A DNA stretch of 64,000 nt, taken from Naegleria gruberi. Taxonomy: Eukaryota. The translations under genes and the position numbers were made by a program. The stretch is taken from assembly GCA_000004985.1 (NCBI GenBank), contig GG738910.1; one strand, written 5' to 3'. Positions 13,810 to 52,300 of the stretch are shown in pieces. The notes beneath the pieces were generated by a model, which was not told the origin of the DNA, did no database searches, and saw nothing but the letters and a program-made list of their open reading frames with translations. Each line of letters opens with the position of its first letter. Position 1 is the first letter of the stretch.

Positions 13810-13975
13810 TAATTTCAAATCTCGTTCTTCAGTATTTAGTTTATCAGTCTTGAATGGACTAAAAATCCATTCTTCCTTATCAAAATTAGCTTTTCTTTAA
13901 GTTCCCCATACCAATTTCAAAGGTCAACCATGATTTTCATCATCACAAATAAAAATTTTTTAAAAAATTAAAAAA

Positions 13976-15058
13976 ATGCAAAATCATGTCCTGATGGGAA
14001 AGAGGACGAGTTGTGCTCGTGTGGCTGTGTACGTGCTGATGGCAATGATGGGTGCTGTTTTTCTGATCATGCTCCAGTTTATGTTGAAGGAGAGGAGCGA
14101 TAAGATGAGATCGTCTTCGGATGAAGAAAATATAATAATCAATAATGATCGAGCAATGATTATGACTACTCAGCAACAACAACAAGAAATTAAACAAGAT
14201 AAACAACAATCTATTTCGGAAAGATCGGCAACAAGTAATGGTAGAAGATCAAGATCAACTTCTTCATCATCATTAAATTCCGAATACGAATATTGGCTAC
14301 GAAATTATATTATTAAATCAGATCCACACTTGTTAGCTTGTCATAATGATATTGGATTTGGATTGATTGAGAGATGGAGAAAGTCTGAACGAGTAATTTG
14401 TGGAGATGAGAAAAATACACAAAATAGCAGAGTTTACATGTACAGAATTCAACAAACCAGACATACTGCACAGGATAATTTTGTGAGGATTAGGAATTTT
14501 GTTACTCTGACTGATGGATTTTTCTCAAATGGATTTACACAGGGCTGGTTTACCTCTGGATGTTCAATGAAAGTGGACAATTTGAAGAGTAGAGAGGGAC
14601 ATAATTTATTCCAAATGCATTTGGATAAGTGGATGGGTCAATATCAAGGAGAGAGGGCTTGTTCAAAGAAAATTAATAGGAGAGTTGTCTTTTTGCAAAG
14701 AGATGGTGAATATAACTTGTTCCACTCAATGACTGATTTCTCATCCTTGTTTGTGAATTATCTCATGATGATTTTTAAGAGAATTGAAGAGGAAGGAATT
14801 GAAGTAACTGATACTATGGAATTATTGGATGAATATGTGCAAGGTACTGATGTGGTCTATTTGGATGGTTATCAAATGGGACCATACATGCCAATTCTGC
14901 AAGCCTTTGGATCTGTATTTTCATACAGTGAATATACTCAACATTTAAAGAAGGAATATGAAGTCAAAGATAAGGATTCTATCTGCTTTGATGAAGTTTT
15001 ATTTGCCACTCCTGGTGGATCTAATTTCCTATTCAAGGACGCATGGAGACCAAAGTAA
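13976..15058 (+). CDS. GT61 (DUF563/EOGT-like) glycosyltransferase paralogue, apparently truncated: N-terminal half only, with a possible short second exon at ~15186..15327
   Basis: Type II signal anchor (VAVYVLMAMMGAVFLIMLQFML). It shares blocks with the 21988..23649 product: RDGEYNLFHSMTDFSSLF vs REQDEHVNMFHAMSDFF, and ICFDEVLFATPG vs VRFERAIFQHAG. It lacks the C-terminal HGAGLT catalytic-region motif. A GTAAGT follows the last codons (aaa|gtaagt at 15055); a 131-nt intron to acceptor 'gatag' at ~15185 would add ...ESHWTKIDPNDFVQMVRSAVLIAETFHLGPGVTATKFDVVNEHHRM*. There is no room downstream for the missing half, because the next gene's 3' end is at 15404. Confidence 0.45.
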   Translation: MQNHVLMGKRTSCARVAVYVLMAMMGAVFLIMLQFMLKERSDKMRSSSDEENIIINNDRAMIMTTQQQQQEIKQDKQQSISERSATSNGRRSRSTSSSSLNSEYEYWLRNYIIKSDPHLLACHNDIGFGLIERWRKSERVICGDEKNTQNSRVYMYRIQQTRHTAQDNFVRIRNFVTLTDGFFSNGFTQGWFTSGCSMKVDNLKSREGHNLFQMHLDKWMGQYQGERACSKKINRRVVFLQRDGEYNLFHSMTDFSSLFVNYLMMIFKRIEEEGIEVTDTMELLDEYVQGTDVVYLDGYQMGPYMPILQAFGSVFSYSEYTQHLKKEYEVKDKDSICFDEVLFATPGGSNFLFKDAWRPK

Positions 15059-15403
15059 GTATTTCTCTTCTACAAGCTGTCTCACCACACATACTAGCCA
15101 ATGTAAGGATTCTGAAGTTTTGAAAGTCTTCTCCAGGTTTATTACCAAGAGACCAGAACGAGAAGCAGGAAAACGTTGTAGATAGAGAATCACATTGGAC
15201 TAAGATTGATCCAAATGATTTTGTTCAAATGGTGAGGTCTGCTGTATTGATAGCAGAAACATTCCACTTAGGTCCTGGTGTTACTGCCACCAAATTCGAT
15301 GTTGTGAATGAACATCATCGTATGTAGAAGATAAAGAGTTGTGTTATTAAATATGATACAAATTTTACTTCAGATTTGAATTGATTCAATGATCTCCAAA
15401 TAC

Positions 15404-20490: not shown

Positions 20491-20922
20491 CTGTGGATTC
20501 AAAATTTCCTCAAAAAGACAATTTTCATTCTTGCTCCTTTAAATAATAGTAGTATTAGTTGTTCCTTAGTTCTGACATTGTGTGAATCAAAGCCGCTTAG
20601 TTCTTCCAAACAATTCAATGAGAGTTGATTAGCATCAAACCGGTTCGGGCTATTAAGGAACCATTTTGTGAAAAAGGATCTGTGAGCAATAAATTCAATA
20701 TCAAAAATAGAGTGGTGCATCCAGAAAAGTCTAGTCCTTAGTTCTTCAGTTCTACTCCTCCTCACTCGTTAACACCTCAAGAGTTTAAGCCAAATCGAAG
20801 CACTCTAAAAAACATTAAGAAAAAAACATTAACACAAAAATATTAAGCAGGTGCACACAAAGTACTTTTTTAACGGTTAAGGGTAACTCTCCTCTTTATA
20901 AGAATAATTGAATAAGAGAAAC

Positions 20923-21987: not shown

Positions 21988-23649
21988 ATGGCGAGACTTT
22001 CATGTATTAAAGGTTTATTTAAAATATATATTGCTGTCTTTGCTATTGTTTTATTAATTCTAGTGATTATCAACATTCAACGACATGAATCTGTTTTCAA
22101 GAAATCATCAACCTTTGAATCTATTCGAAACAAAATTTCGAATATAAATTCGGATGTATTAACAGATGAAAAAACAAACGAACAACAAAAAGATCAAGTA
22201 CAAACAATAACTAAACCATCATCAAATTTAAATACAAATATTGCTAATCAACAATTGCAAAACAAACAATCAGAAACTACAACACCTCTGATTTGTCTAA
22301 ATTCCGACTCGAATAGATTGAAAACTAAACAAGAAGAATTATGTGATTCGGAATATGGATGTGGAATGCTTCGTCAATGGAAACAAAATCAATTATTAAT
22401 GTGTGAACGAAAGGAATCCCATCAAAAAACACAATTGACTTGTTATGAACATAATAATTATCACTTGCCAACTGCCACCTTTCCACACACAATTTGTGAT
22501 TCTGAAAATCTAGTCATGGATTTCTCAAAATTAGTAAGAGCACCATGTTTGAAATATAGACCTGGATATTTTTGTAAAAAGGAAACTTATTACAATTACA
22601 AATCTGGAGCATTGATTGGAAATTGTCATAGAACGAATGAATTTTCAAATTTGAATCATTTTGCAAATGATTTTGGAAAGGATATCTTTTCCAGTTTTAT
22701 AACATTTGAAGAAAAACAAGTTGATTTGCAAAATGTGAAATTTTTTGATGGAATTACTATTTTCGTATCGAGAGAACAAGATGAACATGTCAATATGTTT
22801 CATGCAATGAGTGATTTCTTTGCCACACATGTTGTCATTGAAATGTTTAAACTGAACAGTTCAAATATTCAAATAGTCATTTTGGATGAGCATTTTGATG
22901 GACCTTTTGATTTCTTGTGGGATAAGGCACTTTCCTTCAAGAGACCAATGAAAAAGGCCTCTTCCTTTTCAAATGGAATGGTAAGATTTGAGAGGGCAAT
23001 CTTTCAACATGCTGGCTATGCTACACATTTCCTCTCAAATTTGATGAATTTTAATGAGAATGATGCTACTATGTGTCACTCAAAAATTCCACTCGTTGCC
23101 AATTTTGCCAATAGAATTTTGAATGGTTTGGGTATCAAGAAGAGAGAAATCAATAAGGGTGATGTGATTCGTGTCTTGTTCATCAGTCGAAGACCTTATG
23201 TGAAATTTGGAGTCGAGCACAATTTCATGTCTCGTCAAATTAGCAATGAAGAAGAGGTGTTGGATCGAATGAAGACTCACAGAGAATATGGCAAGAAATT
23301 CACAGTGGAAAGAGTTGATTTTGCACATTTGAAATTAGTTGAACAAATTCAAAAAGTTCACGATTCAGATTTCTTAATTGGATATCATGGAGCTGGATTG
23401 ACTCACTCATTGTGGATGCCTGAGGAAACCTCTGCAGTTCTTGAAATTTGGAATACAGTAACAACAAGAGGATGGAGATGCTTTGAACAATTCACATTTT
23501 GGAAGGGAAACGACTATACATTGTGGAGTAATTCAAATCCAAAGAATTTGAGAAAGGACAGTTTGGGAGATTACTTGACTGTGGATGTTGCGGACTTTTA
23601 CAAAACATTTGATAGAATGGTTAACAAGTTGATTGACTCTAGGAATTAG
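21988..23649 (+). CDS. GT61 family (DUF563) glycosyltransferase, EOGT-like (553 aa), type II membrane topology
   Basis: N-terminal signal anchor (IYIAVFAIVLLILVIINI), a stem region, then a catalytic domain ending with the diagnostic motif ...DSDFLIGYHGAGLTHSLWMPEETSAVLEIW.... This matches the GT61/EOGT [I/V]G-HGAGLTN ... EI motif. Confidence 0.7.
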   Translation: MARLSCIKGLFKIYIAVFAIVLLILVIINIQRHESVFKKSSTFESIRNKISNINSDVLTDEKTNEQQKDQVQTITKPSSNLNTNIANQQLQNKQSETTTPLICLNSDSNRLKTKQEELCDSEYGCGMLRQWKQNQLLMCERKESHQKTQLTCYEHNNYHLPTATFPHTICDSENLVMDFSKLVRAPCLKYRPGYFCKKETYYNYKSGALIGNCHRTNEFSNLNHFANDFGKDIFSSFITFEEKQVDLQNVKFFDGITIFVSREQDEHVNMFHAMSDFFATHVVIEMFKLNSSNIQIVILDEHFDGPFDFLWDKALSFKRPMKKASSFSNGMVRFERAIFQHAGYATHFLSNLMNFNENDATMCHSKIPLVANFANRILNGLGIKKREINKGDVIRVLFISRRPYVKFGVEHNFMSRQISNEEEVLDRMKTHREYGKKFTVERVDFAHLKLVEQIQKVHDSDFLIGYHGAGLTHSLWMPEETSAVLEIWNTVTTRGWRCFEQFTFWKGNDYTLWSNSNPKNLRKDSLGDYLTVDVADFYKTFDRMVNKLIDSRN

Positions 23650-34104: not shown

Positions 34105-37100
34105 ATGATGACGGTGACGGTACTGAGAGGAGTTAAGGGTGCAATCAATACTAACAGCGCAATATGGCACCACCCATGGAAATATTTAAAAATCATATTG
34201 CTTTGTATTTATTGGGTAGTAATTTTAAATAGTAATCATCATGTACAATGTACAGCAACATACAAATCGAAGGTAATTGTGGGAATGACATCATTGAGTC
34301 CTTTGAACAATGTGTCAATCTCAAGTAATTATGTGATTCCCGGAAATATTTATTTAGATAGTACTGCTGGAGTAATGTACACGACCGAAGATGCAAAAAT
34401 TAGAAAGATTACTCTTTCATCGGGTATTATTTCAACACTTGTAGGTTTTCTAGAAGTTTTTAATGGTTGTTAATTTATGTGTAAAAAACAAAAGGTTGGA
34501 AGTGGTAGATTTGGAACAACATATACAACTGATCCTACGACGACTCAAATGCATATGCCAAAAAGCTTAACACTATGGAAAACACACTTAATTTGGATTG
34601 ATGGATATGTGAGAATTAGAAAATTGGATTCATCCACTAATCAAGTTTCGGTAATTTTTGGTGCAGGAAATGGAAACTCTGACAATACTGTTACAAATCC
34701 TCTCTTGGTTCGATGTGGTTCTTCTTTGTCAATAACTGTAGATCCTTCAGATAATATTTATTTTGCAGATTTTGGTAAGTATTAATTCTTTGAAGTTACT
34801 TGACATTGGAAAAGATAATGTGATGGTAAGAAAAATTGACGGGACTACCAATGTAGCTAGTGTTTACAATTATTACCCTAGTGGTTTATTGGGTTATCCA
34901 GTTCAAATCAAATATTGTAATGGAGGCCTTTATGTATATGTAAATGATAACGTTAATTTCTATATTCAAAAATTGACGGAAAGTGATGGAACTGTTTATG
35001 CAAGCGTAGAGGTTGGAGGTGGTTCATCAAAAAGTACAGGTATTTCTGGAACTTCCTATCAAATGGATGCCACTAACTATGTTACCAAGATGGACTGTTA
35101 CAATAATGAGCTTTATTGGAATGCGTACGATTATAGCATTAGAAAACTAACAACTGGTGGAATTGTGGAACAGGTTTTGGGAAATGGATATAGAGGTGAG
35201 TCAGAAGATGGAACCATTACATCATCTTCAATAATTGGTTACATTGAATACTTAACTATTGATCAGGCGAATGGTGATCTTTACTTTGCTGAAAATAATT
35301 ACAACATTAGAAAACTTGTTGGAACTACTTTGTCTTCATTTTTGCATTATAGAAATGTATTGAATGAAGGAAATCCAAAAACTCTTCCATTAGTTACAAA
35401 GGCAATTGCTTTATACAGTGATGGAATTTATTTGGCTGAACCAAACAGTATTAAGTTTTACAATTTAACAAGTTCAACAATTAAGCATTTTGCGGGATAT
35501 TTTTATCTTCCATATAACAACAAAGCCCCAATAGGATCTTTAAATATTGGAGGTTCTTATGTGACTGCTAGATATTCTAGCATTCTATCTATGACATGCA
35601 CTCCAACAGGAGATATCTATTTGAGTGAGTATTATATGAATTTTCATTCAAAATTGATTTAATAGTTGATAATCATTATCCTGGATTTTTTATCAAATTA
35701 CTGTCAAAGAGCACGGGTTTAGTTACAATAGTAGCTGGCACAGCTTCTGCATTAGAGTGTGTTAATGGAAATACTCCAACTGCTTGTGCTATTACTGTAA
35801 GTATTTTTCTCTCATTTATTGTTTCCAATTTTATTCTAGAATGCCAAAAATATACAATATTACAATGGTGAGGTCTATTTTGCAACAGATATCTACATTT
35901 ACAAAATCAGCTCATCAACTGGAAAGATTGAGATTGTTTTAGGAGGCGGTACTTTCACTTCTGATGGTGCATCTTCATCAGCAAATATTGCAACGCTTGG
36001 TACGTTAATTGTCATTCTCTTTCATTTAATTCTTTTATAGGTGCTTTTACGATACGACCATCAGATGGAAAGATATATTACTTTCAACAAATCGGTTTTA
36101 CGTTTTATCTCAAAGTTTTCTCTACTTCAACAGTTACAACACTTTTTACTGTAAGTGTTGATTGAACTATTTAATCTAACTTAATTAAGACCTCTTCTGT
36201 TCCTCTTGTCCCATTCAGTCTTTATGTAAACGACAACGGTTATGTGTACTACACTGATAGTATGACTAATACTGTTAAACTTTTCACACCTACAACAGCT
36301 AATGCTAACACTGGTACACTTACGTCATATGCTGGTAATAGTTTTGGAACATATAATGATGGAGAAACTCTGGCTAATACCAAGTTCACTACACTTGTAG
36401 GTTTGACTTTTTCCAACGATAACAACTTGATGTTTGTTGCAGACGATAAACTCAGAATAATTTACAAGGAGTGTGATGCAAATTATGGTGGAGATTATTG
36501 TAATCTACCCTATTGTTACTCGATTAGATCTGATGACTCCACTGTTTGTAATTCTAATGGAAATTGTACAGATGTTAACAATTGTTTGTGTTCAAATGGT
36601 TTCTCAGGTGCTAATTGTTCTTCTTGGACTTGTAATGGATATTCAAATTCTCTTACAACTGGCTGTTCTTATCATGGTACTTGTACATCATATAACACTT
36701 GTAATTGCTCATCTAATTATTATGGATCTAATTGCTCAATTACAACATGTAATGATATTTATTCTAATTCAAGTGAAGTTTGTTTAGGAAGAGGTATATG
36801 TGCTCAAGTAGACGATTGCCATTGTGAATTTGGTTTTACAGGCAATAATTGCCAAAATTACAACTGCTCTGGAATTGCTTTTGACAATTCCAGTGTCTGC
36901 TCTTCCAGAGGATTGTGTTTATCTCCAAATAATTGTTCTTGTCAAAGTGGGTTTTTTGGAAATGAGTGTCAACACTATAATTGTTATGGAATTCTCGCTA
37001 ATTCGTCTCAAGTTTGTTCCTCAAGTGGTGTATGTTCATCTCCAAATAATTGCACCTGTAATGATGGTTACACTGGTGATGAATGTCACTTGACTTCCTG

Positions 37101-40100
37101 TTATGGCGTTTCTTCCAATAATTCAAAGGTTTGTTCAGGTCATGGAGGTTGCAGCTTTTATAATAATTGTATCTGTGAAAGTGGATATTTTGGAAATGAT
37201 TGCTTCTTCTATAATTGTTTTGGTATTCTGAATACCAATAGTTCAGTATGTTCTGGAAATGGTAACTGTACAATGCATGATACATGTGAGTGCAAAGAGA
37301 GTTTCACTGGATTAAGTTGTAATGTTACAATACCACAAAATAGTCCAATTATTAGTAATATTTCTTTTGGTAACATTACTTTTAATAATACTTCTATGAA
37401 TGAAACATCTTACTTTAACGAAACTCTCATGAGCAACATATCAATGACTAATGGCAGTTCAAATTATATTTCTTTGAGTAATAATACTGTAAATACCACT
37501 TCCTTAAATGATACAGAGTACTTTAATGAAACCAAAATGAACCCTAGCAACATATCAATAACCAACAGTAGTTTAAACTATACTTCTTTAAATGATACTG
37601 CAAATTTCAATGAAACCAAAATGAACAATGACTCTTCTCATAACTCAACTTCTAACACTAATGAAACGGATGTAAATTCTCCCCTCCTTCAACAAAATAC
37701 ATCCACTATCAACAATACCATTCTTAACAATAACGTCTCTGCTGAGTCCTCCCAAATTTATTTACTGGTTTCGTGTTTTGGTATTCTGAATACCAATAGT
37801 TCTGTCTGCTCAGGAAATGGTAATTGTTCAATGAATGATACATGTGAGTGCAAAGAGAGTTTCACTGGATTAAGTTGTAATGTTACAATACCACAAAATA
37901 GTCCAATTATTAGTAATATTTCTTTTGGTAACATTACTTTTAATAATACTTCTATGAATGAAACATCTTACTTTAACGAAACTATAATGAGCAACATATC
38001 AATGACTAATGGCAGTTCAAATTATACTTCCGAAAACTCAACTTTCACCGTTAACGAAACAGATGTAAATTCGTCTCCACAAAATACGTCAACAATCATC
38101 AACAACACCAACCCAACAACTTCTAACACATCTTCTGTTATGCAAAACAGCACATGCTATGGAACCAATTCTACTCTGGTCTGTAGTGGAAATGGAAAAT
38201 GTTTAACTAACCAACAGTGCTCTTGTGACTATGGATACGCAGGTGATGTATGTGAATTGAATACGTGTTTTGGAATTCCTTCTTCTGATAGAGTATGTAA
38301 TGGAAGAGGTGTTTGTTCAAATATCAATACTTGTGAATGTTTTTCTAGAATTGGAGTCAAGATTATGGGAGATGAATGTGAAACTTTGCTTTGCAGAGGA
38401 GTTTATAATGGTGTGGGGTATTTCTTTTCAGATATAGACTCAAGAGTTTGTTCAAACCATGGAAAGTGCTTTATTGATTTAAATAATTCTTCAGGCTGTT
38501 TTTGTGATTATGGTTATTATGGAGATTCGTGCAATAAGTATGATTGTTTCTCGGAGTCAAGCACTAGTGAAAATGTTTGCTCTGGACATGGAACATGTGA
38601 AAGTCCTGATACTTGTCAATGCTTAAATGATGACACAAATGGACATTTTGCAGGACCAAACTGTAATACATGTCATTCGGCATTTTCTGGATCATCTTGT
38701 AAAGACAAGACATGTACTGCTTCAACATGTTTGAATGGAGGTTCATGTGGAAATGAAAACCAGTGTGTTTGTACCAGTAATTTTACAGGACTGATTTGTG
38801 AGGATTGTAAATTAGACCATTATGGGTTAAATTGTAATGTCTATTGTAATTATGAAACTACGTGTAATGGACATGGATTTTGTGATATGTTGAATGGAAC
38901 CTGTTTATGCTTTTCAAGCAGAGAAAATGGATATTGGAATGGAACAAGTTGTAATTCATGCCTTGTAGACTATTATGGCAGTGATTGTTTAACTCGTTTT
39001 GATTCCTTCAATTCAACTTATTCTTCAGCATTATTTGGACAAATTTCAAAATATTTTGATGGAATATCATTCAAGTTATTTGGGCCTTCTTATTCACATA
39101 ACAGCATTTCATGTTCCAAATTAATTCACCCCAATGATTTTTCACTATTTGGTGTAGAACCAAAATGTTATTGGACAGATAAATTGAATGGTGTATTCAA
39201 AATAGAATTTGATAATGATTTTACATTTGACATCACTAAGGTATTGAGTATCCGATTGAATACAAATGTATTCTCCAATACCTTGATTGATTATGGGTAC
39301 ATTAGAATGTATTTGATTCTGTCTGACAATATTCAAGCACCAACAGCAAATATCAAAACCTCAAAAAAACTTTATTCCACGTCTGAGAATATTTATCTTA
39401 GTGCTAGTAACAGTTTTTCAGGAGATAAGAAAGGATTAGAATATTATTGGAGTATTAATGGACAAAATGTACCAATGAATGTTTTACAATCAACAATGTC
39501 AACAAAGGATCAAATTCTAAAAATTGAAAAAGATCAATTAACCAGTGGAACTTTCGTTATTTCATTATTTGTCAAAAGCCAAGTAAGCAAATTGTCGAGC
39601 TCAACTGAGTCAATCACTATTCAAGTTCAAGATGTTGAATTTCCCTCTGTTGTAATTTTAAATAAGGAAATTTCAGTGAAATCAATAGACAAATATATAA
39701 CAATCAAAAAGACAACCTCTATTCCAATATCTTTGAAAGAAAAGGAAATGAAAATAGAATGGCAACAAATAGAAGGACCAACATCCATCAAATTCAAAAA
39801 AGACTCTTACAATAATTTAGTTATTGAACAATTATCAATTGGAAAATGGAAATATGTTTTCAAAGTTTCAATATTTGTTGTTGAAAATCCAACATTAACC
39901 TCTAACGACTTCGTTGTAATCAATGCAGATCAACCAAAACTTTCACTATCATTATCATTGAAACAATCAACAAGAATATCTAATTCTATTCAGGTGAATT
40001 TTCAAGATCCTGAAAACAATTTAGATGAATACGAGCGTTGGAAGTGGACATGTATTGATGTTGCCACGGTTGGATATTGTGGTGATACAATTTATCAAAA

Positions 40101-42357
40101 TCTTGCTTTGAATTCAAAGAATCGCTCCACAATTATTAATCTTTCACAACAAGATTTTCCATCCTATGTCATGAGCCCAACACTTACATTGTTCATTATG
40201 AAGGGAGATAGAAGCGTTTATAGCTCGTTAAATTTAAATATTCAACATTCACCTCCAATAATCAGTGTTATTAGTATTTCACCAAATTTGAGAAATATTG
40301 TAACCAATGATGATAAAATATCAATTGAAATGAAACATCAAGATCAAGATCCCTCCAATTCATCACTCGTAATTAAAACTCAATGGAAAATTGATAACTT
40401 TTTGGTATCTGAAAGTAATACCAAAAAAGTGAATGGAAATGAATTTGAAACAACTAGCTCCACAATCACAACACCTTTTAAGCATCTTAAGAGTTTAAAT
40501 AAGAATAAGTATAGCTCGTTAGTTATTGACTCAAAAGAACTAGAAGAAGGAACTGATCATTCAATTGAGGTCAAAGTTTCCTTTGTGGATAGTTATACCA
40601 ATCAAGAAATGGCCGCCACTTCAAATGTGAACAGTTTCACAAAAGCCTTACCTCCAAGAAAGTGTCCATGTACCATTTCACCAACAACTGGTGTTTCAAT
40701 GAAGACTGATTTTACATTCAGTTGTGATAATTGTCAGAATGAAGATAATACAATTGAAATCAAACAAGGATACATTGATCAAGAAACTGGAATTAAGGTT
40801 TATTTACCATTGTCATTGGATGGTTCCGTTAACATTCCATCTTCCTCTTCTGCTACATCTTCTACCAAAAGAAGATTGGATGATCATTCTGTTCAATTAT
40901 TTGTTGAACTGGGTGACAAATCAACAGGAGAATCCAGAGTAATGTATTCGAATATCACTGTACTACCTCCAAGCCCACCACATCCAACTTTATCTGAAAT
41001 TTTAAATCTTGTTTCAAATCAAACAAGTAAGATCATGTCTACTTCAATTCAAGATGGTAATACAGCAGTTAGTATTGCAGATACTCTTACTTGTATTGTG
41101 TCAACAAGTCAATTATTACAAACACTACCAAGTACTGATAAGGAAACAAGTACTGTCACTCAAGTTCAATCTAAATTATTAGATACATTATCTAGTTCAT
41201 TGCAAACAACTGGATCTGATAGTGTTTCAAGTTCCACAACGTCAATGGCCGTTCTAGCACTGCATTCCGTTGTGAAGAACGAACAAGTAATTGAAAAACC
41301 AGTTATTCAAAAATCAATTACCATTCTAAATAATGTTATTCAATTGACACTTAAAAGTAAGGTTGATATTTTCACACAAACATCAAAACCGCTATTAGCA
41401 ATTGTTGGAAAGTTAAGTGACCAAGTTGCTAAATTTACCCACTTGAAAGAGGAATTTATAAGATACGAGGAAATAGCATCAACGGCTGAGATGATAACCC
41501 TGTCCTATGTTTCTGTTCAACCAGTGAGTGGTGATCCAGCAGCAATTCATGAGAGTGTTGTTAATGCCAAGGCTGACAAAATGTACTTGACTGATTTTTC
41601 AAATGTAATTATATCATCAGCGCCAACAAGCAATTCTAAAAAGAGAGTGAATATTTATCAATCTTTTGTGAATATTCCACCAATGAAAGTTACAGAAAGT
41701 AATGAATTTGCAGAATTGACCTATTCCTACATTGTTAAAGAGCATGTTCCATCGATTTATCAAAAAATTTTACAACAAGAATCAAATAACTCTACCAATG
41801 GAACAAGGTTTGATGTAATTTCATCTGTGAGTGCTTCATTAGCAATTTCATCTCCTCATGCTCACATGATTGAATTTTCTCAAAATTTGACAATTTATAT
41901 TCATGTCAATGATGAAGATTTCTCCACAGCGTCATTGACAGAATATGCATGTGTATTAGTCAATTCAAATTTGGAAAGCGATTTTGAAAATTGTACCATT
42001 TCAGGACGTGACAAGGCAACTGAGTCAATTGCTTGTAATTGTCGATTCATTGATCTACATGTTTCTAATGTAATAATTCTCAAAAACAATAAGCAAAAAA
42101 TAGTACTACAGAACAAACAAGAAGAAGGTCTAGATGATGATGTGTTGGTGATTATAATTGTTGCAATTGTTTCATGTGTTGGATTGTCTATTCTGTCAAT
42201 TTCAATGGTAATGGGAATTTTTGCTTGTTATATGAAGAAGAAATCTAAAAAGATTTATCCTTACGAAAGAAAGGAATTAATTTCACACAATATTGAACAA
42301 CCTACCAAACCTTATGATAATTCATTGATTTCAACATCTTCCATTTCTTTACTTTAG
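34105..42357 (+). CDS. Cluster member 3 (giant, ~2,664 aa): NHL propeller, tenascin-type EGF arrays with N-glycan-dense stalk, PKD/REJ-like module, GPS-like motif, C-terminal TM; 7 exons, approx join(34105..34440,34495..34774,34815..35624,35666..35796,35840..35999,36041..36150,36190..42357)
   Basis: The joined ORFs 34102.., 34477.., 34763.. and 36244..42357 need 39-54-nt introns (donors gtaggt/gtaagt/gtgagt/gtaagt/gtacgt/gtaagt; acceptors aaaag/aaaag/aatag/tctag/ttatag/ttaag). Summed CDS is 7,995 nt (divisible by 3). Splicing restores NHL blades such as ...IYFADFG|DNVMVRKIDG... and ...LSKSTGLVTIVAGTASALECVNGNTPTACAIT|NAKNIQYYNGEVYFATDIYIYKI.... Then ~30 CxCxxGYxGxxC EGF units, the module with ...SASNSFSGDKKGLEYYWSINGQNVP..., ...CPCTISPTTGVSMKTDFTFSCDNCQN..., juxtamembrane ...YACVLVNSNLESDFENCTISGRDKATESIACNCRFIDLHVSNVIIL, TM LVIIIVAIVSCVGLSILSISMVMGIFAC, and a short tail. 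Confidence 0.6.
37217..38028 (+). repeat. Internal direct duplication (~255 nt at 37217..37467 and 37774..38028) flanking a sequon-dense spacer, inside cluster member 3
   Basis: Both copies encode CFGILNTNSSVCSGNGNC(T/S)M(H/N)DTCECKESFTGLSCNVTIPQNSPIISNISFGNITFNNTSMNETSYFNET(L/I)MSNISMTNGSSNY. About 140 nt (approx 37300..37440 vs 37845..37985) look identical. The intervening ~300 nt encodes almost continuous N-x-S/T sequons. Confidence 0.7.
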
Positions 42358-43396: not shown

Positions 43397-46300
43397 ATGA
43401 TGAAGACCTCCATTTGCTTCCCATTACTACATTCAAACCACAACATGGCTGTACATTATAGTAAAGGTTCATGTTCAACTACTACTTTGTTGCTAGAAGA
43501 ACAAGATGTGGCTGAAGGTGTTGAACGCCTGTCTCCTCTTGTTCTAAACCTTCGGCTCGACTTCATGCCACCAGTGTTGATTAATAACATTTACTGTCCA
43601 AATATAAAGTGGTGTACTTTGTCAGGAGCGTATGGACTGAAAAGGAAATGCAGAATCGAGATAATGTTTATATTATATAAACTGAACCTTAAAAAAATGG
43701 CCACGTTCATTCAAGAAAAACAAATGGCTGTTTCTAAGGGTGCACAAAAATCATCAATAATTTCAACCATGATGATGATAATTTTTGTATGCCTATTATT
43801 TCTCGCTAACTCGATAAGGGGAATTGACTTTGAGGTTGCGCCTTATTACAAAGTAACAACTTTATTGAGAGAAGCCGATAAAGTTGAGTGTGTTCGTTTT
43901 GGTCCGAAGGGTATATATTATTCCAAGCCATACCAAATAGTTTTATACTCTTTGGACAGTTCTTCAATGTATGTAACTCAAGGAGCTGGCAATTTTGGCA
44001 CTGGAGAAAGAGGCGACACTAATGGTGCTAGATACTGGCGTGATATTACAGGAACATATTCATTAAAATCCAAGATTGATTACCCTTACAAGTTTGCCTT
44101 CCATGCTGGAAGATCCAAAACTTACTTTGCACTGGCTAATCATCAAGTAAAGCTAGACACTGACGATGTTATTTCTCCATTCATTGGTAAACCAAATGTA
44201 ACAGGTAATGCGGAAGGAGATCCTACTTCTGAGTGTCTGTTGAATGATCCTCAAGGAGTTGACGTTTCATTTGATGGTGATTTTGTGTATGTGGCTGATA
44301 CTGGTAACAATCTTATCAAGTATACTTCATACAAAGATGGTGTATTCGTCATTAGTAATCTTGCTGGTACTGGTAACACAACAAGTTTAGTTGACGGTGT
44401 CAATGCTTTACAGGTTGACCTTAATAGACCTGTTTCTGTAAGGTTTTCCAAAAAAACAGGTGAGATTTATATTGCAGAAAAGGGAAATCATGTTATTAGA
44501 AAAGTTAGAAAAGACAATATTGCTTCTGTAGCGGTTGGTTCAATTGGTATCTCAGGTTATAACGGAGATTTTAAGAGTTCTTTGGATTCATTTTTGAGTG
44601 AACCAAGTGATATTGCGATTTCCACTAGTGGTGTTATATATATTGCTGATTCTGGTAATAATCGAGTCAGAAAAGTTTATCAAAATGGTATGTTGGTTTT
44701 CCTCTATTCAGTTTTTACCTTGGGAATGATATATAGGAACAATAACAACTGTATGCGGAAATGGAATGAACATGTATGGAGGCGATTCACTTGATTCTAG
44801 AAGAACAGCAATAGGAGGTGTAAATTCTGTTGATGTTAATGAAAATGGAGAATTAGTTATTTCTCACATGAATTATATTCGTAAATTGACTCCTATTTGT
44901 TATAATGGTTATGTATTCAATTCTGAAACTCATTTGTGTAATCCGTATTTCCAGTGTTTTGGAAAGAAACATACTGAACCATATGTGTGCTCTGGAAGAG
45001 GATCTTGTATTAACCATAATTGTATTTGCAAAGAAGGATTTGAAGGAGAAAAATGTGAAACTATATCAAAGGTTTTCAATGTGAAACGATTGTTGGTTTC
45101 TGGAGAAGTAACAAATCTACCACCATCAATTTTAGCAGCAAATATGAAACATCTTCAAGTGAGCAATACTGGCGACATGATTGTCCTTACACAAGATGGA
45201 ATCCTTGGAAGACTTGTTGGAAACTCACTGGTTAAAGTTTCTCAATCTAGTCTGGCATTGTTCTACCTGGAAGAAGATGGTTCAATACTTACAACATCTA
45301 CTACTTCAATTATCAAGATTGGTATTGATGGAGCTATATTATCTCTTGTAAAAACAACTAATTTCTATGATGTAGATGGCGTCTCACCAACAAATATTAA
45401 TATTGGCGCATTTAGTTGTATTACACAAGATCAAGTTTCAAAAGTCTACTATGTTACAGAATATTACTCAAATGTTTTTGCAAAAGTTGAAAATGGGAAG
45501 TTAGCTTTACTGATTAGTAATACAAAAGGATTTGCAGATGGCTTAAAAAATGTTGCCAGATCTACCTCTCCTAAATTTGTTTATGCATATGGAGGCACAG
45601 TCATATTTTCAGATTATAACAGAATAAGAATGTGGAAAGATTACACAACCACAACAATTGCAGGTAATGGTATCGAAGGATACAACGGAAATAATGTACC
45701 AAAATTGGCCTGTTCTTTTGGTGAAATTGTTGGGTTTCATGTAGTTAGAAAATCAGCAACAGTGTTTTGGATTTACGTTTCTGACAGTTATTCTAGAACA
45801 ATCAGATTAATCAAAACCAATGAAAATAATGTAACTATAATTGCTGGATCCCCTGGGACCGGCAAATACATGAATTTTGAGGATAACCCCAAGAAGGCCA
45901 TTTTTTCATTACCTATTGGTTTATCGATGGTCAATGACACTTTATATTTCATTGACCAAGGAAGTAGTAGAATTATGAGTCTTTCACCTGATGGTACTAA
46001 ACTGACAACCATTGCAGGCGGAAGAGGTGTTTTAAACGTTGGAGAAAATCTAGACCAACGGTTTTCTTATTTTGGTCCATCCCCTACAGGAATTTATCTT
46101 AAAGAATCACCAACAAGGGAATTATTAATTAGTGATAGTAATATTGGCAGAATAAGAAAAAGCATTTTTGAAAACAATCTTTGGGGTAATGTGACTACAC
46201 TTGCTGGTACTTCAACCAGTGAATTGCCAGTTGATAAAGGAATGGATGGTGACTGTTTAACTTGCGCCTTCCTAAGACCTTCAAAAATACGATTCGGGGG

Positions 46301-49300
46301 AAATGAAACTCTACTTGTATCAGAATCGATTAATACTGTCAAACTTATCAATGTTGGGCAGGGATCAGTTAGAACACTTGTTGGAACTCCTTACACTAAT
46401 CCTCTACAAAATCCATCTCTTGTAACTGTCAATACGTCAGCAATAGGATTCCAGATAGATGGGTTACGGGATGCTATTCTTGTTGGAGATGAACTGGTTT
46501 TTGCTGAAAAATCCAGAATTCTTAAGGTCAATTCACAAGGTTTAATAGAAATTGTTGCTGGTGATGGAAATGGTTATTCATGTAATTTTGGTAATTACAT
46601 GTCGGCCAAAATGGCAAAGTTTGGCAATAATGCTGTGGGAACAAAATTGGTAACCTCTCTCGATTATTACGATGGAGAGATTTATATTTTAGAAGAATAC
46701 GCTCTCAGAAAAGTTAATTCCAAAGGAATAATGATACCAATAATTAGTGGGCAAGGAACAACGTCTTGGTCGAATGGAGTTAGAAAATTGCCATTACAAG
46801 ATGCATCAATTCCTGCATGTAGTTTTATGAAAGTTGTTAATGAAAATGAGATTTATATTCTCAGTACTGCAGGACAGTTGTATATTGTAAGAAATGGAAC
46901 TGTTGAGAGACCTATTATAACTAAAGATTTATCTTTTATGGGCCCAGTATATTCCCAATTCTATAGCACAAGCGATGGAGAATTTTACATGTTGACTGCA
47001 AATACGGTTGAATTAGGTAAAATGAGTTGTCCTTCATTTTCCAAACAAAATGAAAATGATACATGTGAAAATATGATAACTTGTTTTGGTTTAAAGTCAA
47101 CAGATCAAAATGTTTGTTCAACGAATGGTAAATGTTCAGCTTTGGATACATGTATCTGTAATTTTGGTTGGAGTGGTGTTAAATGTAATGAATCAACTGC
47201 TCAATTGGTGATTCAAAGCCTGAACCCAAACAGAGTTACCACTGATGATGGACTTGATATTGGTTTCAAAACCTCCTCTTCTCCATTGACAAATTTAAAA
47301 GTTGATACAAAAACAGGAATTGTTTATTTGCTTTCTGGAGGAAAAACCATTTCTCTCAACGGCAAAACAAATGATTGGGTTAGATCCAGTGATACAACAT
47401 CAAAATCTATGATTATTTCTAAAACAACAGGTTACTTCTATTTTTTAAGAGAATCTTGCATCTACCAAAGGGGAGCAACTCCTTATCCATATTATTATTC
47501 TGGAAATTGCTACACTAAGGGTTCAGTTCTTGGAACTATTTCAACCGCATCATATAACAACTTGGAAGATGGTGACTCTGGGGAGGATGGTAGTTTGTAT
47601 ATAGTTGATAGTGGAAATCACGTTGTAAGATTAATATCAGAAGGAGTAATGTCAACCTTTTGTGGTAGTTTTGGTGTTTCTGGTTTATTTATCAACTCTA
47701 ATTCCTCAACCAAAACTTTTTTGAAATCACCAAGGGCCATCAAAGTCACCTCAAACGGGGTTTACATTGCTGATAGTGGAAATTACAGAATTCTTTTTAT
47801 TGATAAATCTGGACATGTCCAAAAAATTGCAGGGTCATCAAATGGTACATCAAATGGGGATGGAAAAGCAACTCTGACAAATATTTTCCCTTCTAATTCA
47901 TTGGATTATTCAGAGAGTCGCCAAGAACTGTACTTTATAGATAATAATAGAGATGAGATGAATTCAGGGAGTGTAAAAGTAAGAAAGATTACCAAAGATG
48001 GATATGTTGAAACGTTGTTTGGTTATTACGAGAGGGATCCATATTCAAACTTAACAGTTCCAATGACCATCACACTGGAAAAGGATACCAGTTTCTATGC
48101 AGCAAATTCTTTGGCTGTTTCAGGTGATTACTTGTATTTAACATTTGATTCTGTGAAATTGATTGCAAAAGTTTCACTTTCCACAAATACCTTGTATGTG
48201 GTTTCCAAAATAGGTTCAGTCCTGAATGGTGATGGCTTTCATGTCGGTTTTACCACCTTCCAACACCCAAGTGCACCATATTTCCATAGTATTACTCGTA
48301 CTTTGTATTGGGTTGAAATGTCCTCAATAAGAATGATGAGAGATAACAAAGTTTACACCGTGGTTGGCCTTAATTCAAACATTCCTTCCTTTGGAAAGAT
48401 GAAACCATTGTGGAAAGATATTTCTCCAAAAGGAATTGCACTTTCATCAACTGGAGAGTTATATTTTTCTGATGGACAGCATGTCATTTATAAGATTCTA
48501 AATTCAAGATCTGATATTGAAATTGTTTGGGGAAAGAAAGGTGTTTATGGAAGTGCTGACACTCTTCTAGAAAATCCAACTGCTATTTTTATTAATTCCA
48601 AAGATGAACTGTATATTGCTGATTCATACAGAATAATCAAGTTTGACATCACCTCCAAGAAAATTACTAAAATAGTGAGTAAGAGTGATGTATATTTTGG
48701 TATATGTTCATCAGTGATAGAACTTTCAACAGGAGAAATAGTCTATGTGGATTCTTATTTTAAAAAAGTTAGAATGATTCTCAACAATGGTACAAATATT
48801 ATAATCGCTGGTGGTGGTTTAAAAACAGGTGTTTCGAATGGTGATCTTGCAACAAAACTACTTTTCACCACTCCTGTTTCAGTTCAAGAAATCAACACAG
48901 GAGTATTACTTTTGCTGGAGCAAAACTCTTTGATCAAGATGACTTGGTCTCCATCTAGAAATGGTTATATTTGTTCAATAATTGCTGGAAAGGGCTTATA
49001 TAGTATGACTGCCTCAGGAAATGGTGGTCTTGCGATAAATGCTGTTATCTATAATTTTGCTATGAGTTACAATACATTTACGAAAGAGGTTTATCTTCTT
49101 GACAATGTTGAGTCAAGAATTATCACTCCGTACTGTCCAGAAGGGTTCACTTTTAATATTTCAAATGAGACATGTCAGCCAGTTGATATGTGTTTTGGTT
49201 TTAATTCAAATGACAACAGAGCGTGTTCTGGAAGAGGTGAGTGCGTTGGTCTTGATGCATGTAATTGTTTTGGAGGTTACAGTGGAATCAAGTGTGAAAT

Positions 49301-52300
49301 AATGTGTCACAAAACATGTGAAGGAACTGTTGTGGACGCATCATTCATGTTAACGGAATTCTCAACTGATTTTAGCAAACCTGGCAATTTGGTGGTAGAT
49401 TCTGAGTACATTTATGTTTCTGATTCTGAAGACAATGTAGTTAAACGTTTTGATAAGGGTGGATATTCTTCAATTTATTGTGGAATTGAAGGACAAAGTG
49501 GCAACCAAGGAAATGGTTTACCAGGAACTGAAGCCACACTAAATTCACCTCTAGGTTTAAGTGTATACAATAATGAACTATTTATTGCTGATTTTAACAA
49601 TAGTGTCATCAGAAAGGTTGACGCTTTTGGGTTTGTTGATGTTGCATTCAATACAACAGAAAAACCTCTCAACATTATTGCCAGGGGCGAAAACGTATTT
49701 TACTATACAGATTCCACTTCATTGTACATGATTAACCAATCAGTTATTAGTACCATTGCAACAGGATTTGATAGTCCTTATGGATTGTTCTATTATTCAA
49801 ATACGTCCAACATGGAGGAAAGTTTACTAGTTGCAGATACCAATAATAACTCAATCAAGAAGGTATCTCTCTCTGATAGACAAGTTACCATAATTCTTTC
49901 TAATTTGAATTCTCCTAAAGGACTATTCATTGATTCTTTTGGTGATCTTTATATTGCTGACAGTGGATCAAACCAAATTTTAAAGTATTCAGGAGGTGTT
50001 TTGAAGGTAATTGCAGGAACATCCAATTCCTCAATGAATGGTACAGATGGTGCAATCAATTCACTTCAAGCAATTCTGCACTCTCCTAGTGATCTTATTG
50101 TAACAGATGAAGGAATTATTTATTTCACCGATTCACAAGGATATGCCGTGAAAACTCTCACTCCTGTTTGTGATAAAATTTCCATGTATGATCCAATTTT
50201 AAGAAAGTGTTTCCGACCTCTACTTTGTTTCAATTTTGGTATTGATGATAAGAGAGCTTGTAGCTCTAATGGTCAATGTGTTGCAGAGAATACCTGTAAT
50301 TGTAATGATAATTGGGGAGGGGATGATTGTTCCATTCCATCATGTTTCAACATTTCTGCTTCAAGTACCACTACGGTTTGTTCTGGACATGGTTTGTGTA
50401 TTGATCATAATACTTGTCGATGTGATACTGGTTGGTCTGGTGCTGACTGTTCAATTGCATCATGTTATGGTATCAAGGGTGATAACAGTTCAGTATGTTA
50501 CGGAAATGGCCAGTGTGTCGGTTTTAATCAATGTTCTTGTAATAATGGATGGTCTGATTTCGATTGTTTGACACCTTCGTGCTTTGGCTTGACCTATGAT
50601 TTGGATTCTTCATGTTCTGGAAATGGCAAATGTATTTCTAATGATACTTGTGAATGTTATTTAGGTTATCAAGGTCCTGATTGCTCTACAGTGTCAGTCG
50701 ATCCATTCCAAGTATACAATCCAGTACTAACTGTTAAGACTATTGGTTCTTTGAACAAACCAAAAGGAGTTACAGTATCTTCGAGTGGTGATATTTATTT
50801 CAGCGATACTAGCAACAATAAGTTGAAGAAGATATTACAATCTGATTGGTCTGTATCTCTTATTGCTGGAACTGGTACTGGTTCGTTTTCAGGTGATGGA
50901 TCTTCACCAACAGCAGCCACTATTAATAATCCTATTGGTTTGGATATTACAGAAAACGGAGAAGTTTATTTTGCTGATTCAAATAACAATAGAGTTAGAA
51001 AATGTAGTTATGATGGTAAATTAATCTCGACAGTGGTCCAAGTTACATCTCCTCAACAAGTCAAAATTGACGAATACAATAATCGATTGTGGATTGTTGC
51101 TTCTGGAGGAGTTTACATGTATGATTTGAATATTGCAAATATGACCCTTGTATACAGTAATGATCTCAATACTCCATTCGGAATTGATATTGGATATCAA
51201 GGTAAAATAGTGTACATTACAGACAAATCAAATCATGTTATTAGAAAGCTCGCAAAAAGAGGTAATTCATATGTTCAATCTATTTATTTTGGAAGTAAGG
51301 GAGTAACTGGAACCTACTCATCAACATCTAATATGAATAACCCAATGGGTATATCAGTAACTAATGGTAATAGTATTATATTTTCTGATTCCTCTAATCA
51401 TGTAATTAAACTGATTTCTCATGGAGTTAACAAGACAACATCAGTTATTGTTGGTACTGGATCTTCATCAGGTTATTCAGCAACAGAAACTAAACCTCTT
51501 TCCATGGCTCTAAATACTCCCGGTGATGTATTTGTGAATGAGAAAGGAATTTATATTGCTGATACCAATGACAACGCCATTAGAATTATTAAGATTTCAT
51601 GTCCATACACTAACTATGTTTTCAATTATTATACTTCCAAGTGTGAATTTGATACCAGAATTTCTTGTAATAAGATTTCATTTTCTTCACCAAATGTTTG
51701 TAATGGTAAAGGTGTTTGTTATGGAGTTGATAAATGCAACTGTACAAGTGGGTGGAATGGTACTTTTTGTGAAATACCTATTTGTTTTGGAGTGTCCAAT
51801 CCAAAACTAGCTTGTAGTTCAAATGGTCAATGTATTTCTAACAATACTTGTTCCTGTAATGATGGTTGGTTTGGATCTATTTGTCAAAATCCATCTTGTT
51901 TTGGAATTTCATATAATGATTCAAATACCTGTTCTGGAAATGGTCAATGTATTGCAAATAATACTTGCTCGTGTGATAATTTTTACGAAGGCAAAAATTG
52001 TTCTCTTCCAAAATGTTTTGGTATTAATTCAGACAGCTCATTGGTTTGTAGTGGAAATGGTTTATGCGTTAGCCCAGATACATGTAATTGTACTAGCGGT
52101 TATTTTGGAAATGATTGTTTTTACACAAATTGTTTTGGAATATTGTCAGGAGAAACTACTGTATGTTCCTCAAAAGGAAACTGTACTGCTCCAAATACTT
52201 GTTTTTGTGAAAAAGGGTATTATGGGAATCAGTGTCAAAACTTTACTTGTTTTGGAATTGACTCATTCAGCCCCAATGCTTGCTCATCTCGTGGAAGTTG

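What the first reader, a model, noticed from the sequence alone, without database searches (positions are those of the whole stretch)
21988..23649. EOGT-like GT61 glycosyltransferase genes (one intact, one truncated) near EGF-array receptors that carry the EOGT acceptor consensus
21988..23649 encodes a type II GT61/DUF563 enzyme with the HGAGLT...EI motif typical of EGF-domain-specific O-GlcNAc transferase (EOGT) and relatives. 13976..15058 is a paralogue that shares the N-terminal half (FH(S/A)M(T/S)DF block) but stops before the catalytic-region motif. Many EGF units in the adjacent receptor genes have C5-x-x-G-x-(S/T)-G-x-x-C6, for example CNDGYTGDEC, CEFGFTGNNC, CSNGFSGANC, CDTGWSGADC and CNFGWSGVKC. 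This is the sequon EOGT uses in metazoan Notch. Enzyme and candidate substrates may be functionally linked; the truncated copy may be a pseudogene or regulatory decoy.
Basis: partly seen in the sequence, partly recalled or inferred. Interest (0 to 1): 0.6.

Follow-up and report, generated by a model that had tools for sequence, protein, structure and literature searches.

The report
Naegleria GT61 glycosyltransferase plus deleted paralogue
The window (Naegleria gruberi) holds one intact, probably active GT61 glycosyltransferase gene and a second GT61 gene crippled by an internal deletion, but nothing ties either one specifically to animal EOGT or to the EGF-repeat genes further along.

Summary
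The window is Naegleria gruberi NEG-M. Both ORFs are identical to reference proteins NAEGRDRAFT_74092 and NAEGRDRAFT_74088.

- It is about 23% identical to mouse EOGT.
- At least 150 cluster representatives score higher against it.
- It has a type II anchor and no HDEL signal.
- A distance tree puts mouse EOGT outside the protist radiation that contains it.

ORF 13976-15058 belongs to a separate, anciently diverged GT61 lineage. Its stop codon lies inside a splice donor. After a 43-nt intron the gene continues, but 136 codons are deleted and the frame shifts. The deleted stretch carries the second and third residues of the N-R-R UDP-binding triad, the uridine-contacting Gln, and HGAGLTH. An untranslated C-terminal relic remains. 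N. lovaniensis and N. fowleri keep the gene intact.

The EOGT sequon occurs in 8 of 31 canonical EGF loops (26%). That is no more than composition predicts (p=0.31) and about the rate in NOTCH1. The nearest EGF gene is 12.6 kb away. Orthologues in Willaertia and N. lovaniensis have no EGF genes nearby. The proposed enzyme-substrate link is unsupported.

The parts
21988..23649 (+). Intact GT61 gene (553 aa). Residues 138-553 are identical to N. gruberi XP_002670939.1 / NAEGRDRAFT_74092.
   Evidence: ORF list; Pfam PF04577 E=3.9e-21; orthologues at 44-50% identity and 82-98% query coverage in Naegleria and Willaertia; identity to the reference protein; AF2 model pLDDT 81.
22015..22077 (+). Signal-anchor helix (residues 10-30, LFKIYIAVFAIVLLILVIINI), followed by a disordered stem (residues 37-95).
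   Evidence: Sequence; AF2 helix 2-56 and pLDDT below 50 for 37-95.
22792..22803 (+). N269-M-F-H272, the equivalent of EOGT N245 (phosphate contact of the N-R-R triad) and H248 (candidate catalytic base).
   Evidence: Alignment to 9wjk; invariant in A2 and at least 90% conserved in A3; residue roles from PMC13123520.
23188..23235 (+). R401 ... R416, the equivalents of EOGT R372 and R377. Here 14 residues separate them, against 4 in mouse EOGT.
23344..23406 (+). Q453 and HGAGLTH (467-473, with H473), the equivalents of EOGT uridine contacts Q412 and H432.
   Evidence: PMC13123520.
13976..15054 (+). Exon 1 of the second GT61 gene (GT61b). The 360-aa ORF is identical to XP_002670936.1 / NAEGRDRAFT_74088. 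It holds the anchor, the Cys-containing N-domain and the N-lobe with NLFHSMTDF.
15055..15097 (+). 43-nt intron (GTAAGT...CATACTAG). The ORF's apparent stop codon lies inside the donor.
   Evidence: Sequence. Splicing gives ...WRPNQCKDSEV, matching N. lovaniensis ...WRPNQCRDSDI. Orthologous genes have an intron at the same codon.
15098..15185 (+). Remnant of the last exon, read to the premature TAG (15183-15185). The deletion junction with a 1-nt frame shift lies at about 15153. The predicted product is 388 aa.
   Evidence: tblastn of P0014; conceptual splicing and alignment.
15154..15327 (+). Out-of-frame relic of the conserved C-terminal tail (QNEKQENVVDRESHWTKIDPNDF...NEHHRM*). It is 53% identical to N. 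lovaniensis residues 567-623.
36244..42357 (+). EGF/REJ ORF (2037 aa). It has 7 canonical C5-C6 loops, 3 of them with S/T (36589-36618, 36823-36852, 37057-37086).
   Evidence: Pfam; regex counts.
44766..57002 (+). EGF/NHL/REJ/PKD ORF (4078 aa). It has 15 canonical loops, 3 of them with S/T (47157-47186, 49266-49295, 50421-50450).
58206..63318 (-). Two overlapping ORFs (58206-61838 and 61819-63318) with EGF/REJ/PKD domains. Together they have 9 canonical loops, 2 of them with S/T (62518-62547, 62869-62898).

Best explanation
Main gene. 21988-23649 encodes a catalytically competent GT61 glycosyltransferase (GT-B fold) anchored in the secretory pathway as a type II membrane protein. It has a short cytoplasmic tail, a signal anchor, a disordered stem, a Cys-containing N-domain and two Rossmann-like lobes. 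By inference from the EOGT and POMGNT2 crystal structures:
- N269, R401 and R416 (the N-R-R triad) hold the UDP phosphates.
- Q453 and H473 hold the uridine.
- H272 is the likely base that activates the acceptor hydroxyl.
It belongs to a heterolobosean clade inside a large, uncharacterised protist GT61 radiation. That radiation is about as far from animal EOGT as it is from the window's other GT61 gene. Donor sugar and acceptor are therefore unknown. It most likely decorates secreted or surface glycoconjugates in the Golgi or ER. EGF O-GlcNAcylation is only one minority possibility.

Second gene. 13976-15327 is the N. gruberi copy of a different GT61 lineage that is intact in N. lovaniensis and N. 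fowleri. In N. gruberi a deletion of about 408 nt inside the last exon removed most of the donor-binding C-lobe and shifted the frame. It is most likely a young pseudogene.

EGF genes. Their presence in the same 64 kb is coincidental. EGF arrays are common in this genome type, and the 'sequon' is just the EGF signature with S/T at a variable position.
For: Shown:
- Pfam GT61 match.
- All six UDP-contact residues of mouse EOGT are conserved (roles from PMC13123520).
- A profile of the 112 nearest relatives hits EOGT at 208 bits across residues 81-446, including the N-domain, against 78 bits for POMGNT2.
- The search of 50%-identity cluster representatives gave 1192 relatives at E<=1e-3. The 150th best scores 83 bits, against 48 bits for mouse EOGT.
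- Mouse EOGT is at most 28% identical to any of the top hits and 22.6% identical to the window protein, ranking it 75th of 123 in closeness.
- In the NJ tree the heterolobosean clade has 89% bootstrap, deep nodes are unresolved, and mouse EOGT lies outside.
- Deletion. Intact orthologues.
- No sequon enrichment. Mouse NOTCH1 has 11 consensus sites in its EGF repeats, only some of them used (PMC5388531).
- No EGF neighbours or synteny around orthologues.
Against: - By sequence EOGT is the nearest solved structure. The Q and H uridine contacts are shared with EOGT but absent from POMGNT2.
- N. gruberi does encode huge EGF arrays whose loops fit the broad EOGT consensus.
- My tree is NJ on 254 columns with one EOGT, one POMGNT2 and no plant sequence, so it cannot exclude a deep sister relationship to EOGT.
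- For the pseudogene reading: exon 1 is an intact 360-aa ORF that is 98% identical in a second strain, with only in-frame indels. The out-of-frame tail has no stops in 57 codons. The gene could therefore still be expressed, or the deletion could be very recent.
Confidence: 0.68

Rival explanations
1. The 553-aa enzyme is a functional equivalent of EOGT. It would add O-GlcNAc (or another O-linked sugar) to Ser/Thr between C5 and C6 of Naegleria EGF domains, including those of the large receptor-like genes in this window.
For: - Best solved relative by sequence is EOGT.
- The clade profile hits EOGT at 208 bits, including the N-terminal Cys domain.
- All UDP contacts are conserved, including the Q412 and H432 equivalents that POMGNT2 lacks.
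- Eight EGF loops in the window fit C5xxGx(S/T)GxxC6.
- UniProt auto-names this protein and its Naegleria relatives EOGT.
Against: - It is only about 23% identical to mouse EOGT and no closer than the average protist GT61.
- At least 150 cluster representatives are closer.
- Mouse EOGT lies outside the radiation in the tree.
- It has a type II anchor and no HDEL or KDEL, unlike the soluble ER-lumenal EOGT.
- The sequon is not enriched.
- There is no conserved linkage to EGF genes.
- Chlorophyte proteins carry the same automatic EOGT name but are treated as uncharacterised GT61 proteins in PMC13123520.
- Related protist and plant enzymes have other activities.
Confidence: 0.13
2. The deleted GT61b gene is still functional as a 388-aa N-lobe-only membrane protein, for example an acceptor-binding decoy or lectin-like regulator, rather than a pseudogene.
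For: - Exon 1 is an intact 360-aa ORF with the anchor and N-lobe.
- A second strain (Logan ERR1078381) keeps it at 98% amino-acid identity. Its three indels are all multiples of 3. There are 4 synonymous and 4 non-synonymous changes over about 208 and 860 sites, giving dN/dS of roughly 0.24.
- The splice donor and acceptor are intact.
Against: - Eight substitutions are far too few to show selection.
- The indels lie in triplet-repeat, low-complexity sequence.
- The product ends in 10 out-of-frame residues.
- It lacks the two Arg, the Gln and HGAGLTH, so it cannot bind UDP-sugar.
- No precedent for a half-GT61 regulator was found.
- No transcript data were available.
Confidence: 0.15
3. The 408-nt deletion and frame shift in GT61b are an error of the reference assembly, and the living gene is intact.
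For: The out-of-frame tail is as well conserved (53% identity to N. lovaniensis, no stops in 57 codons) as the rest of the gene (39%). The only independent contig (L001) ends in Illumina adapter just after the splice donor, so it cannot confirm the deletion.
Against: There is no gap or run of N at the junction. A clean loss of 136 codons plus 1 nt is not a typical collapse artefact. No copy of the missing segment exists elsewhere in the window. The reference annotation also stops at 360 aa.
Confidence: 0.08

Closest known systems
[quoted passage not shown]
   Same: - GT61 family.
- N-terminal Cys-containing domain with the FG(Y/L)...W...C...C...C pattern. The C135 and C187 equivalents (C139, C213) are present.
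- The N-R-R triad, the H248 equivalent, and the Q412 and H432 equivalents are all conserved.
   Different: - About 23% identity.
- Not among the 150 nearest cluster representatives.
- Type II signal anchor with a long stem, instead of a cleaved signal peptide plus C-terminal HDEL.
- 14 residues instead of 4 between the two Arg.
- The W207 position is Ile.
- The N263 glycosylation site is not at the aligned position (an NSS sequon lies 3 residues later).
- No activity data.
POMGNT2 / AGO61 (PDB 7e9j, 8kb7)
   Different: - 12-16% identity.
- Sequence E-value only 0.59.
- POMGNT2 lacks the Gln and His uridine contacts and has an extra fibronectin-type C-terminal region.
- Its acceptor is O-mannose on alpha-dystroglycan.
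Plant and algal GT61 enzymes (N-glycan beta1,2-xylosyltransferase XYLT; xylan XAT, XAX and XYXT)
   Same: Type II Golgi topology and the N-R-R triad, according to PMC13123520. Chlorophyte members carry the same automatic 'EOGT' name.
   Different: These enzymes use UDP-Xyl or UDP-Araf and act on glycans, not on EGF domains.
N. gruberi reference annotation: NAEGRDRAFT_74092 (XP_002670939.1, UniRef100_D2VYE5) and NAEGRDRAFT_74088 (XP_002670936.1)
   Same: Identical sequences. The window is this locus.
   Different: The reference model of 74092 starts at Met138 and omits the anchor and stem that the ORF and its orthologues have. 74088 is annotated only as 'predicted protein', with no note of GT61 ancestry or of the deletion.

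Membership tests
CAZy GT61 / Pfam PF04577 (gene 21988-23649) | Profile match above the curated threshold | tested here: met
   76.2 bits against a cut-off of 27, E=3.9e-21, profile positions 2-136 of 137.
CAZy GT61 / Pfam PF04577 (gene 21988-23649) | GT-B two-lobe fold like the solved GT61 structures | tested here: met
CAZy GT61 / Pfam PF04577 (gene 21988-23649) | N-R-R UDP-phosphate triad plus the invariant His (EOGT N245, R372, R377, H248) | tested here: met
   N269, R401, R416 and H272 are aligned to 9wjk and at least 90% conserved among 112 relatives.
Metazoan EOGT orthogroup | Uridine contacts Q412 and H432 | tested here: met
   Q453 and H473. POMGNT2 lacks them. Whether plant GT61 enzymes have them was not tested.
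Metazoan EOGT orthogroup | Orthology: EOGT sequences are the nearest relatives or form a supported sister group | tested here: not met
   Mouse EOGT scores 48 bits, against 83 bits or more for the 150 best cluster representatives. None of these is more than 28% identical to mouse EOGT. Mouse EOGT lies outside the 118 protist sequences in the NJ tree, with 48% bootstrap. Limited by NJ and sparse references.
Metazoan EOGT orthogroup | Soluble ER-lumenal enzyme with a cleaved signal peptide and a C-terminal HDEL/KDEL-type retention signal | tested here: not met
   Hydrophobic anchor at residues 10-30, followed by a stem whose residues 37-95 are disordered. The C-terminus is ...KLIDSRN.
Metazoan EOGT orthogroup | Invariant N-glycosylation site N263 and its contact residues | tested here: inconclusive
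   The aligned position is F287. The only sequon (N290-S-S) lies 3 residues downstream on the same segment.
Metazoan EOGT orthogroup | Transfers GlcNAc from UDP-GlcNAc to Ser/Thr in C5xxGx(S/T)GxxC6 of folded EGF domains | not testable with these tools
   Needs an enzyme assay or glycoproteomics. The sequon is present in 8 of 31 loops but not enriched.
GT61 (gene 13976-15327, GT61b) | Homology to bona fide GT61 proteins | tested here: met
   E=2e-65 to N. lovaniensis P0014 (PF04577-positive); tblastn E=1.7e-71.
GT61 (gene 13976-15327, GT61b) | Donor-binding C-lobe (R...R, Q, HGAGLTH) present | tested here: not met
   The equivalent of P0014 residues 431-566 is absent from the window and the frame is shifted. 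There is no Pfam hit.
Pseudogene (GT61b) | Disabling lesion relative to intact orthologues in sister species | tested here: met
   Intact 623-aa and 650-aa orthologues exist in N. lovaniensis and N. fowleri, with an uninterrupted last exon. The window copy has the deletion plus a premature TAG at 15183-15185.
Pseudogene (GT61b) | Loss of expression or relaxed selection | tested here: inconclusive
   Only 8 substitutions separate it from a second strain (4 synonymous, 4 non-synonymous). No transcript data were available.

The most novel reading that the evidence does not exclude
Heterolobosean amoebae, which carry very large EGF-repeat arrays, use their expanded GT61 family to O-glycosylate the C5-C6 loop of EGF domains. 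EOGT-type EGF modification would then either predate animals or have arisen convergently in a discoban protist. This would contradict the current view that EOGT co-evolved with EGF expansion in early Metazoa (PMC13123520 discussion).
Probability: 0.12. Interest if true: 0.65.

Novelty: new member of a known kind. Interest (0 to 1): 0.22.

Why it matters
As it stands, little changes. The locus is a published N. gruberi gene that UniProt already auto-labels EOGT, and the analysis shows that this label and the proposed link to EGF genes are not backed by orthology, topology, sequon statistics or synteny.

The useful outcomes are corrective:
1. The automatic 'EOGT' name on Naegleria and other protist GT61 proteins should be read as 'GT61, activity unknown'.
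2. The reference model NAEGRDRAFT_74092 is N-terminally truncated.
3. NAEGRDRAFT_74088 is a deletion remnant of a GT61 gene that is intact in N. fowleri and N. lovaniensis.

If the minority reading were true, it would move the origin of extracellular O-GlcNAc on EGF domains outside animals. A simple UDP-Glo assay would test it.

Tried and rejected
1. I first read 'FHLGPGVT' (15268-15288) as a degenerate HGAGLT motif. Rejected: it aligns with the conserved C-terminal tail 'HLGTGIH' of orthologues, which also carry a true HGAGLTH upstream.
2. I proposed a second intron at 15320-15373, giving ...NEHHHLN*. Rejected: the last exon of N. lovaniensis is uninterrupted and ends NEHHHL*, so the direct read NEHHRM* is the homologous end.
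3. A third homologous-protein search with a 112-sequence alignment, meant to pull in named EOGT and plant GT61 proteins, returned only 13 close hits. A labelled broad phylogeny was therefore impossible.
4. The afdb50 fold library was not installed. The PDB fold libraries predate 9wjk, so only POMGNT2 appeared.
5. The listing of cluster members on 10 diverse relatives gave almost no names.
6. Exact look-ups of the 360-aa ORF, of P0171 and of the neighbouring BTB gene found nothing. P0005 was also not on record. These look-ups were meant to find independent contigs across the deletion.
7. Literature searches for EOGT or GT61 together with Naegleria, and for Naegleria N-glycans with xylose, found nothing relevant.
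8. I did not use plant GT61 sequences recalled from memory, because they could not be verified.
9. The OCR'd EOGT alignment in the supplement of PMC13123520 has reading errors. I used it only for residue numbering, not for the tree.
Full report
**Source of the window.** The window is AT-rich (GC about 34%) with long, intron-poor ORFs. Exact look-ups show it is Naegleria gruberi NEG-M. The 360-aa ORF 13976-15058 is identical to XP_002670936.1 (NAEGRDRAFT_74088, 'predicted protein'). Residues 138-553 of ORF 21988-23649 are identical to XP_002670939.1 (NAEGRDRAFT_74092). Both lie on a 243,952-bp scaffold. [quoted passage not shown]

**The intact gene (21988-23649).**
- The 553-aa ORF matches Pfam PF04577 (GT61) at E=3.9e-21.
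- Orthologues in N. lovaniensis, N. fowleri, N. gruberi paralogues and Willaertia magna are 44-50% identical. The N. lovaniensis, N. fowleri and Willaertia proteins cover 89-98% of the query, including the N-terminal hydrophobic segment. The full ORF is therefore a better model than the reference, which starts at Met138.
- An AlphaFold2 model built on 12 sequences has mean pLDDT 81 and pTM 0.78. It shows an N-terminal helix, a disordered stem (residues 37-95) and a two-lobe alpha/beta body.
- By sequence, the best solved relative is mouse EOGT (9wjk, E=7e-12). POMGNT2 scores E=0.59.

**Active-site residues.** The EOGT crystal-structure paper (PMC13123520) defines the UDP contacts N245, H248, R372, R377, Q412 and H432. 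N-R-R is described as the GT61 hallmark and H248 as the probable base. The window protein has N269, H272, R401, R416, Q453 and H473 at the aligned positions. These are invariant or nearly so among its relatives. I therefore infer an active UDP-sugar transferase. This is an inference from conservation, not a demonstration.

**Is it EOGT?** Several tests say no.
- An exhaustive HMMER scan of 1.84 billion cluster representatives found 1192 relatives at E<=1e-3. The 150th best scores 83 bits, whereas mouse EOGT scores 48 bits.
- None of the top 150 is a metazoan EOGT. The highest identity to mouse EOGT among them is 28%.
- In a trimmed alignment the window protein is 22.6% identical to mouse EOGT and ranks 75th of 123 in closeness to it.
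- An NJ tree (254 catalytic columns, 100 bootstraps, rooted on POMGNT2) recovers a heterolobosean clade at 89%. Deeper nodes are unresolved, and mouse EOGT sits outside all 118 protist sequences (48% support).
- A profile of the 112 nearest relatives does hit EOGT strongly (208 bits, residues 81-446, including the Cys-containing N-domain) and POMGNT2 weakly (78 bits). The whole radiation is thus 'EOGT-side' rather than 'POMGNT2-side' of GT61.
- I had no verified plant sequences, so the position relative to xylosyl- and arabinosyl-transferases is untested.
- Topology also differs. EOGT is soluble in the ER lumen with a signal peptide and HDEL. This protein has a signal anchor and stem and ends ...LIDSRN.
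- The two Arg residues are 14 residues apart rather than 4. The EOGT N263 glycosite is not at the aligned position.
- Chlorophyte proteins with the same automatic EOGT name are treated simply as GT61 proteins in PMC13123520.

**The second gene (13976-15327).**
- It has no Pfam hit and only 18% pairwise identity to the first gene. Its homologues include N. lovaniensis C9374_004555 (623 aa, PF04577; E=2e-65) and N. fowleri FDP41_001256 (650 aa).
- The ORF's TAA stop (15056-58) sits in a GTAAGT donor. Removing 15055-15097 (GTAAGT...TAG) gives ...KDAWRPNQCKDSEVLKVFSRFITKR, colinear with N. lovaniensis ...KDAWRPNQCRDSDILKAFSYYMTRK. Orthologous genes have an intron at the same codon.
- tblastn maps the N. 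lovaniensis residues as follows:

| N. lovaniensis residues | Window coordinates | Frame |
|---|---|---|
| 66-411 | 14141-15052 | 2 |
| 412-430 | 15096-15152 | 3 |
| 567-623 | 15154-15324 | 1 |
| 431-566 | absent | - |

- The only other match for the missing part is the first GT61 gene.
- The missing 136 codons hold the two Arg, the Gln and HGAGLTH.
- In N. lovaniensis the last exon (residues 410-623) is uninterrupted. This is therefore an internal deletion, not a skipped exon.
- The spliced message would give a 388-aa product ending in 10 out-of-frame residues (TAG at 15183-15185). The conserved tail ...NEHHRM* (compare NEHHHL*) remains as an untranslated relic.
- The relic is 53% identical to N. 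lovaniensis and has no stops, so the deletion is young.
- A contig from a second strain (Logan ERR1078381, 98-99% nucleotide identity) stops in adapter sequence right after the donor and cannot confirm the lesion.
- Between the strains, exon 1 shows 4 synonymous and 4 non-synonymous changes, too few to judge selection.
- The two window genes are about 22% identical and fall in different, well-supported lineages. GT61b groups with P0103 and P0158 at 93% bootstrap. They are not a recent duplicate pair.

**The EGF claim.**
- EGF arrays are real in ORFs 36244-42357, 44766-57002, 58206-61838(-) and 61819-63318(-).
- Of 31 canonical C..G..G..C loops, 8 (26%) have Ser or Thr at the acceptor position. 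Tyr (11) and Phe (5) are more frequent.
- Given 20.8% S+T in these ORFs, the binomial p is 0.31.
- Sawaguchi et al. count 11 strict consensus sites in mouse NOTCH1, note that only some are used, and conclude that extra constraints apply (PMC5388531). Taking 36 EGF repeats in NOTCH1 from general knowledge (the paper passage read here gives no total), that is about 31%. The sequon is thus the ordinary EGF signature with a common residue, not evidence of a dedicated enzyme.
- The nearest EGF ORF starts 12.6 kb downstream of the GT61 stop, with five ORFs of at least 200 aa between them.
- Within 10 kb of the orthologues in W. magna and N. lovaniensis, for both GT61 lineages, there are no EGF genes and no shared neighbours.

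**Verdict.** The window has one probably active GT61 enzyme of an uncharacterised protist lineage and one GT61 gene disabled by an internal deletion. The EOGT label and the enzyme-substrate link remain unsupported but not excluded (about 0.12-0.13). This is a new, uncharacterised member of a known family in a published genome, and interest is low to moderate.

Noticed in passing
window 21988-22399 (codons 1-137 of the GT61 ORF): The N. gruberi reference model NAEGRDRAFT_74092 (416 aa) starts at Met138. It omits the signal anchor and stem that the continuous ORF encodes and that N. lovaniensis, N. fowleri and Willaertia orthologues retain. The reference model looks N-terminally truncated.
   Followed up: partly
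P0003, P0005, P0172 (N. gruberi proteins outside the window): N. gruberi has at least three further paralogues of the intact GT61 gene (493, 525 and 576 aa). In the model of one (P0005) HGAGLTH reads HDLGLTN and the RRPY...R loop is missing. The family may therefore contain other decayed or mis-modelled copies.
   Followed up: no
window 43397-44794 and 44766-57002 (+): An NHL-repeat ORF overlaps the start of the 4078-aa EGF/NHL/REJ/PKD ORF by 29 nt. They are probably one gene of more than 4500 aa joined by a small intron or frame change.
   Followed up: no
window 58206-61838 and 61819-63318 (-): Two minus-strand ORFs overlap by 20 nt. One carries an EGF array, the other REJ/PKD/EGF domains. 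They are probably exons of a single receptor-like gene.
   Followed up: no
L001 (Logan ERR1078381 contig, 2227 bp) against window 12870-15063: A second N. gruberi-like strain is 98-99% identical at the nucleotide level. It has in-frame indels in the low-complexity part of GT61b and a 6-nt intergenic indel. Both contig ends carry Illumina adapter sequence.
   Followed up: partly
L004 3455-8841 (N. lovaniensis, upstream of its intact GT61b): Genes with Stealth CR1-CR4, Notch/LNR and Ig_GNPTAB domains (GlcNAc-1-phosphotransferase-like) lie 1-6 kb from the GT61b orthologue. This neighbourhood is not present in the N. gruberi window.
   Followed up: no
window 17305-20490 (+) and 20908-21933 (+): Between the two GT61 genes lie a 1061-aa membrane protein with an adenylate/guanylate cyclase domain and a His-rich, low-complexity 341-aa ORF (TTG start in the mechanical ORF list, so its true start is uncertain).
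   Followed up: no
window 26205-28319 (-), 30236-32404 (+); L003, L004, L006: NHL/teneurin-like repeat genes recur near GT61 genes in the window and in N. lovaniensis loci. This most likely just reflects a very large NHL gene family in Naegleria.
   Followed up: no
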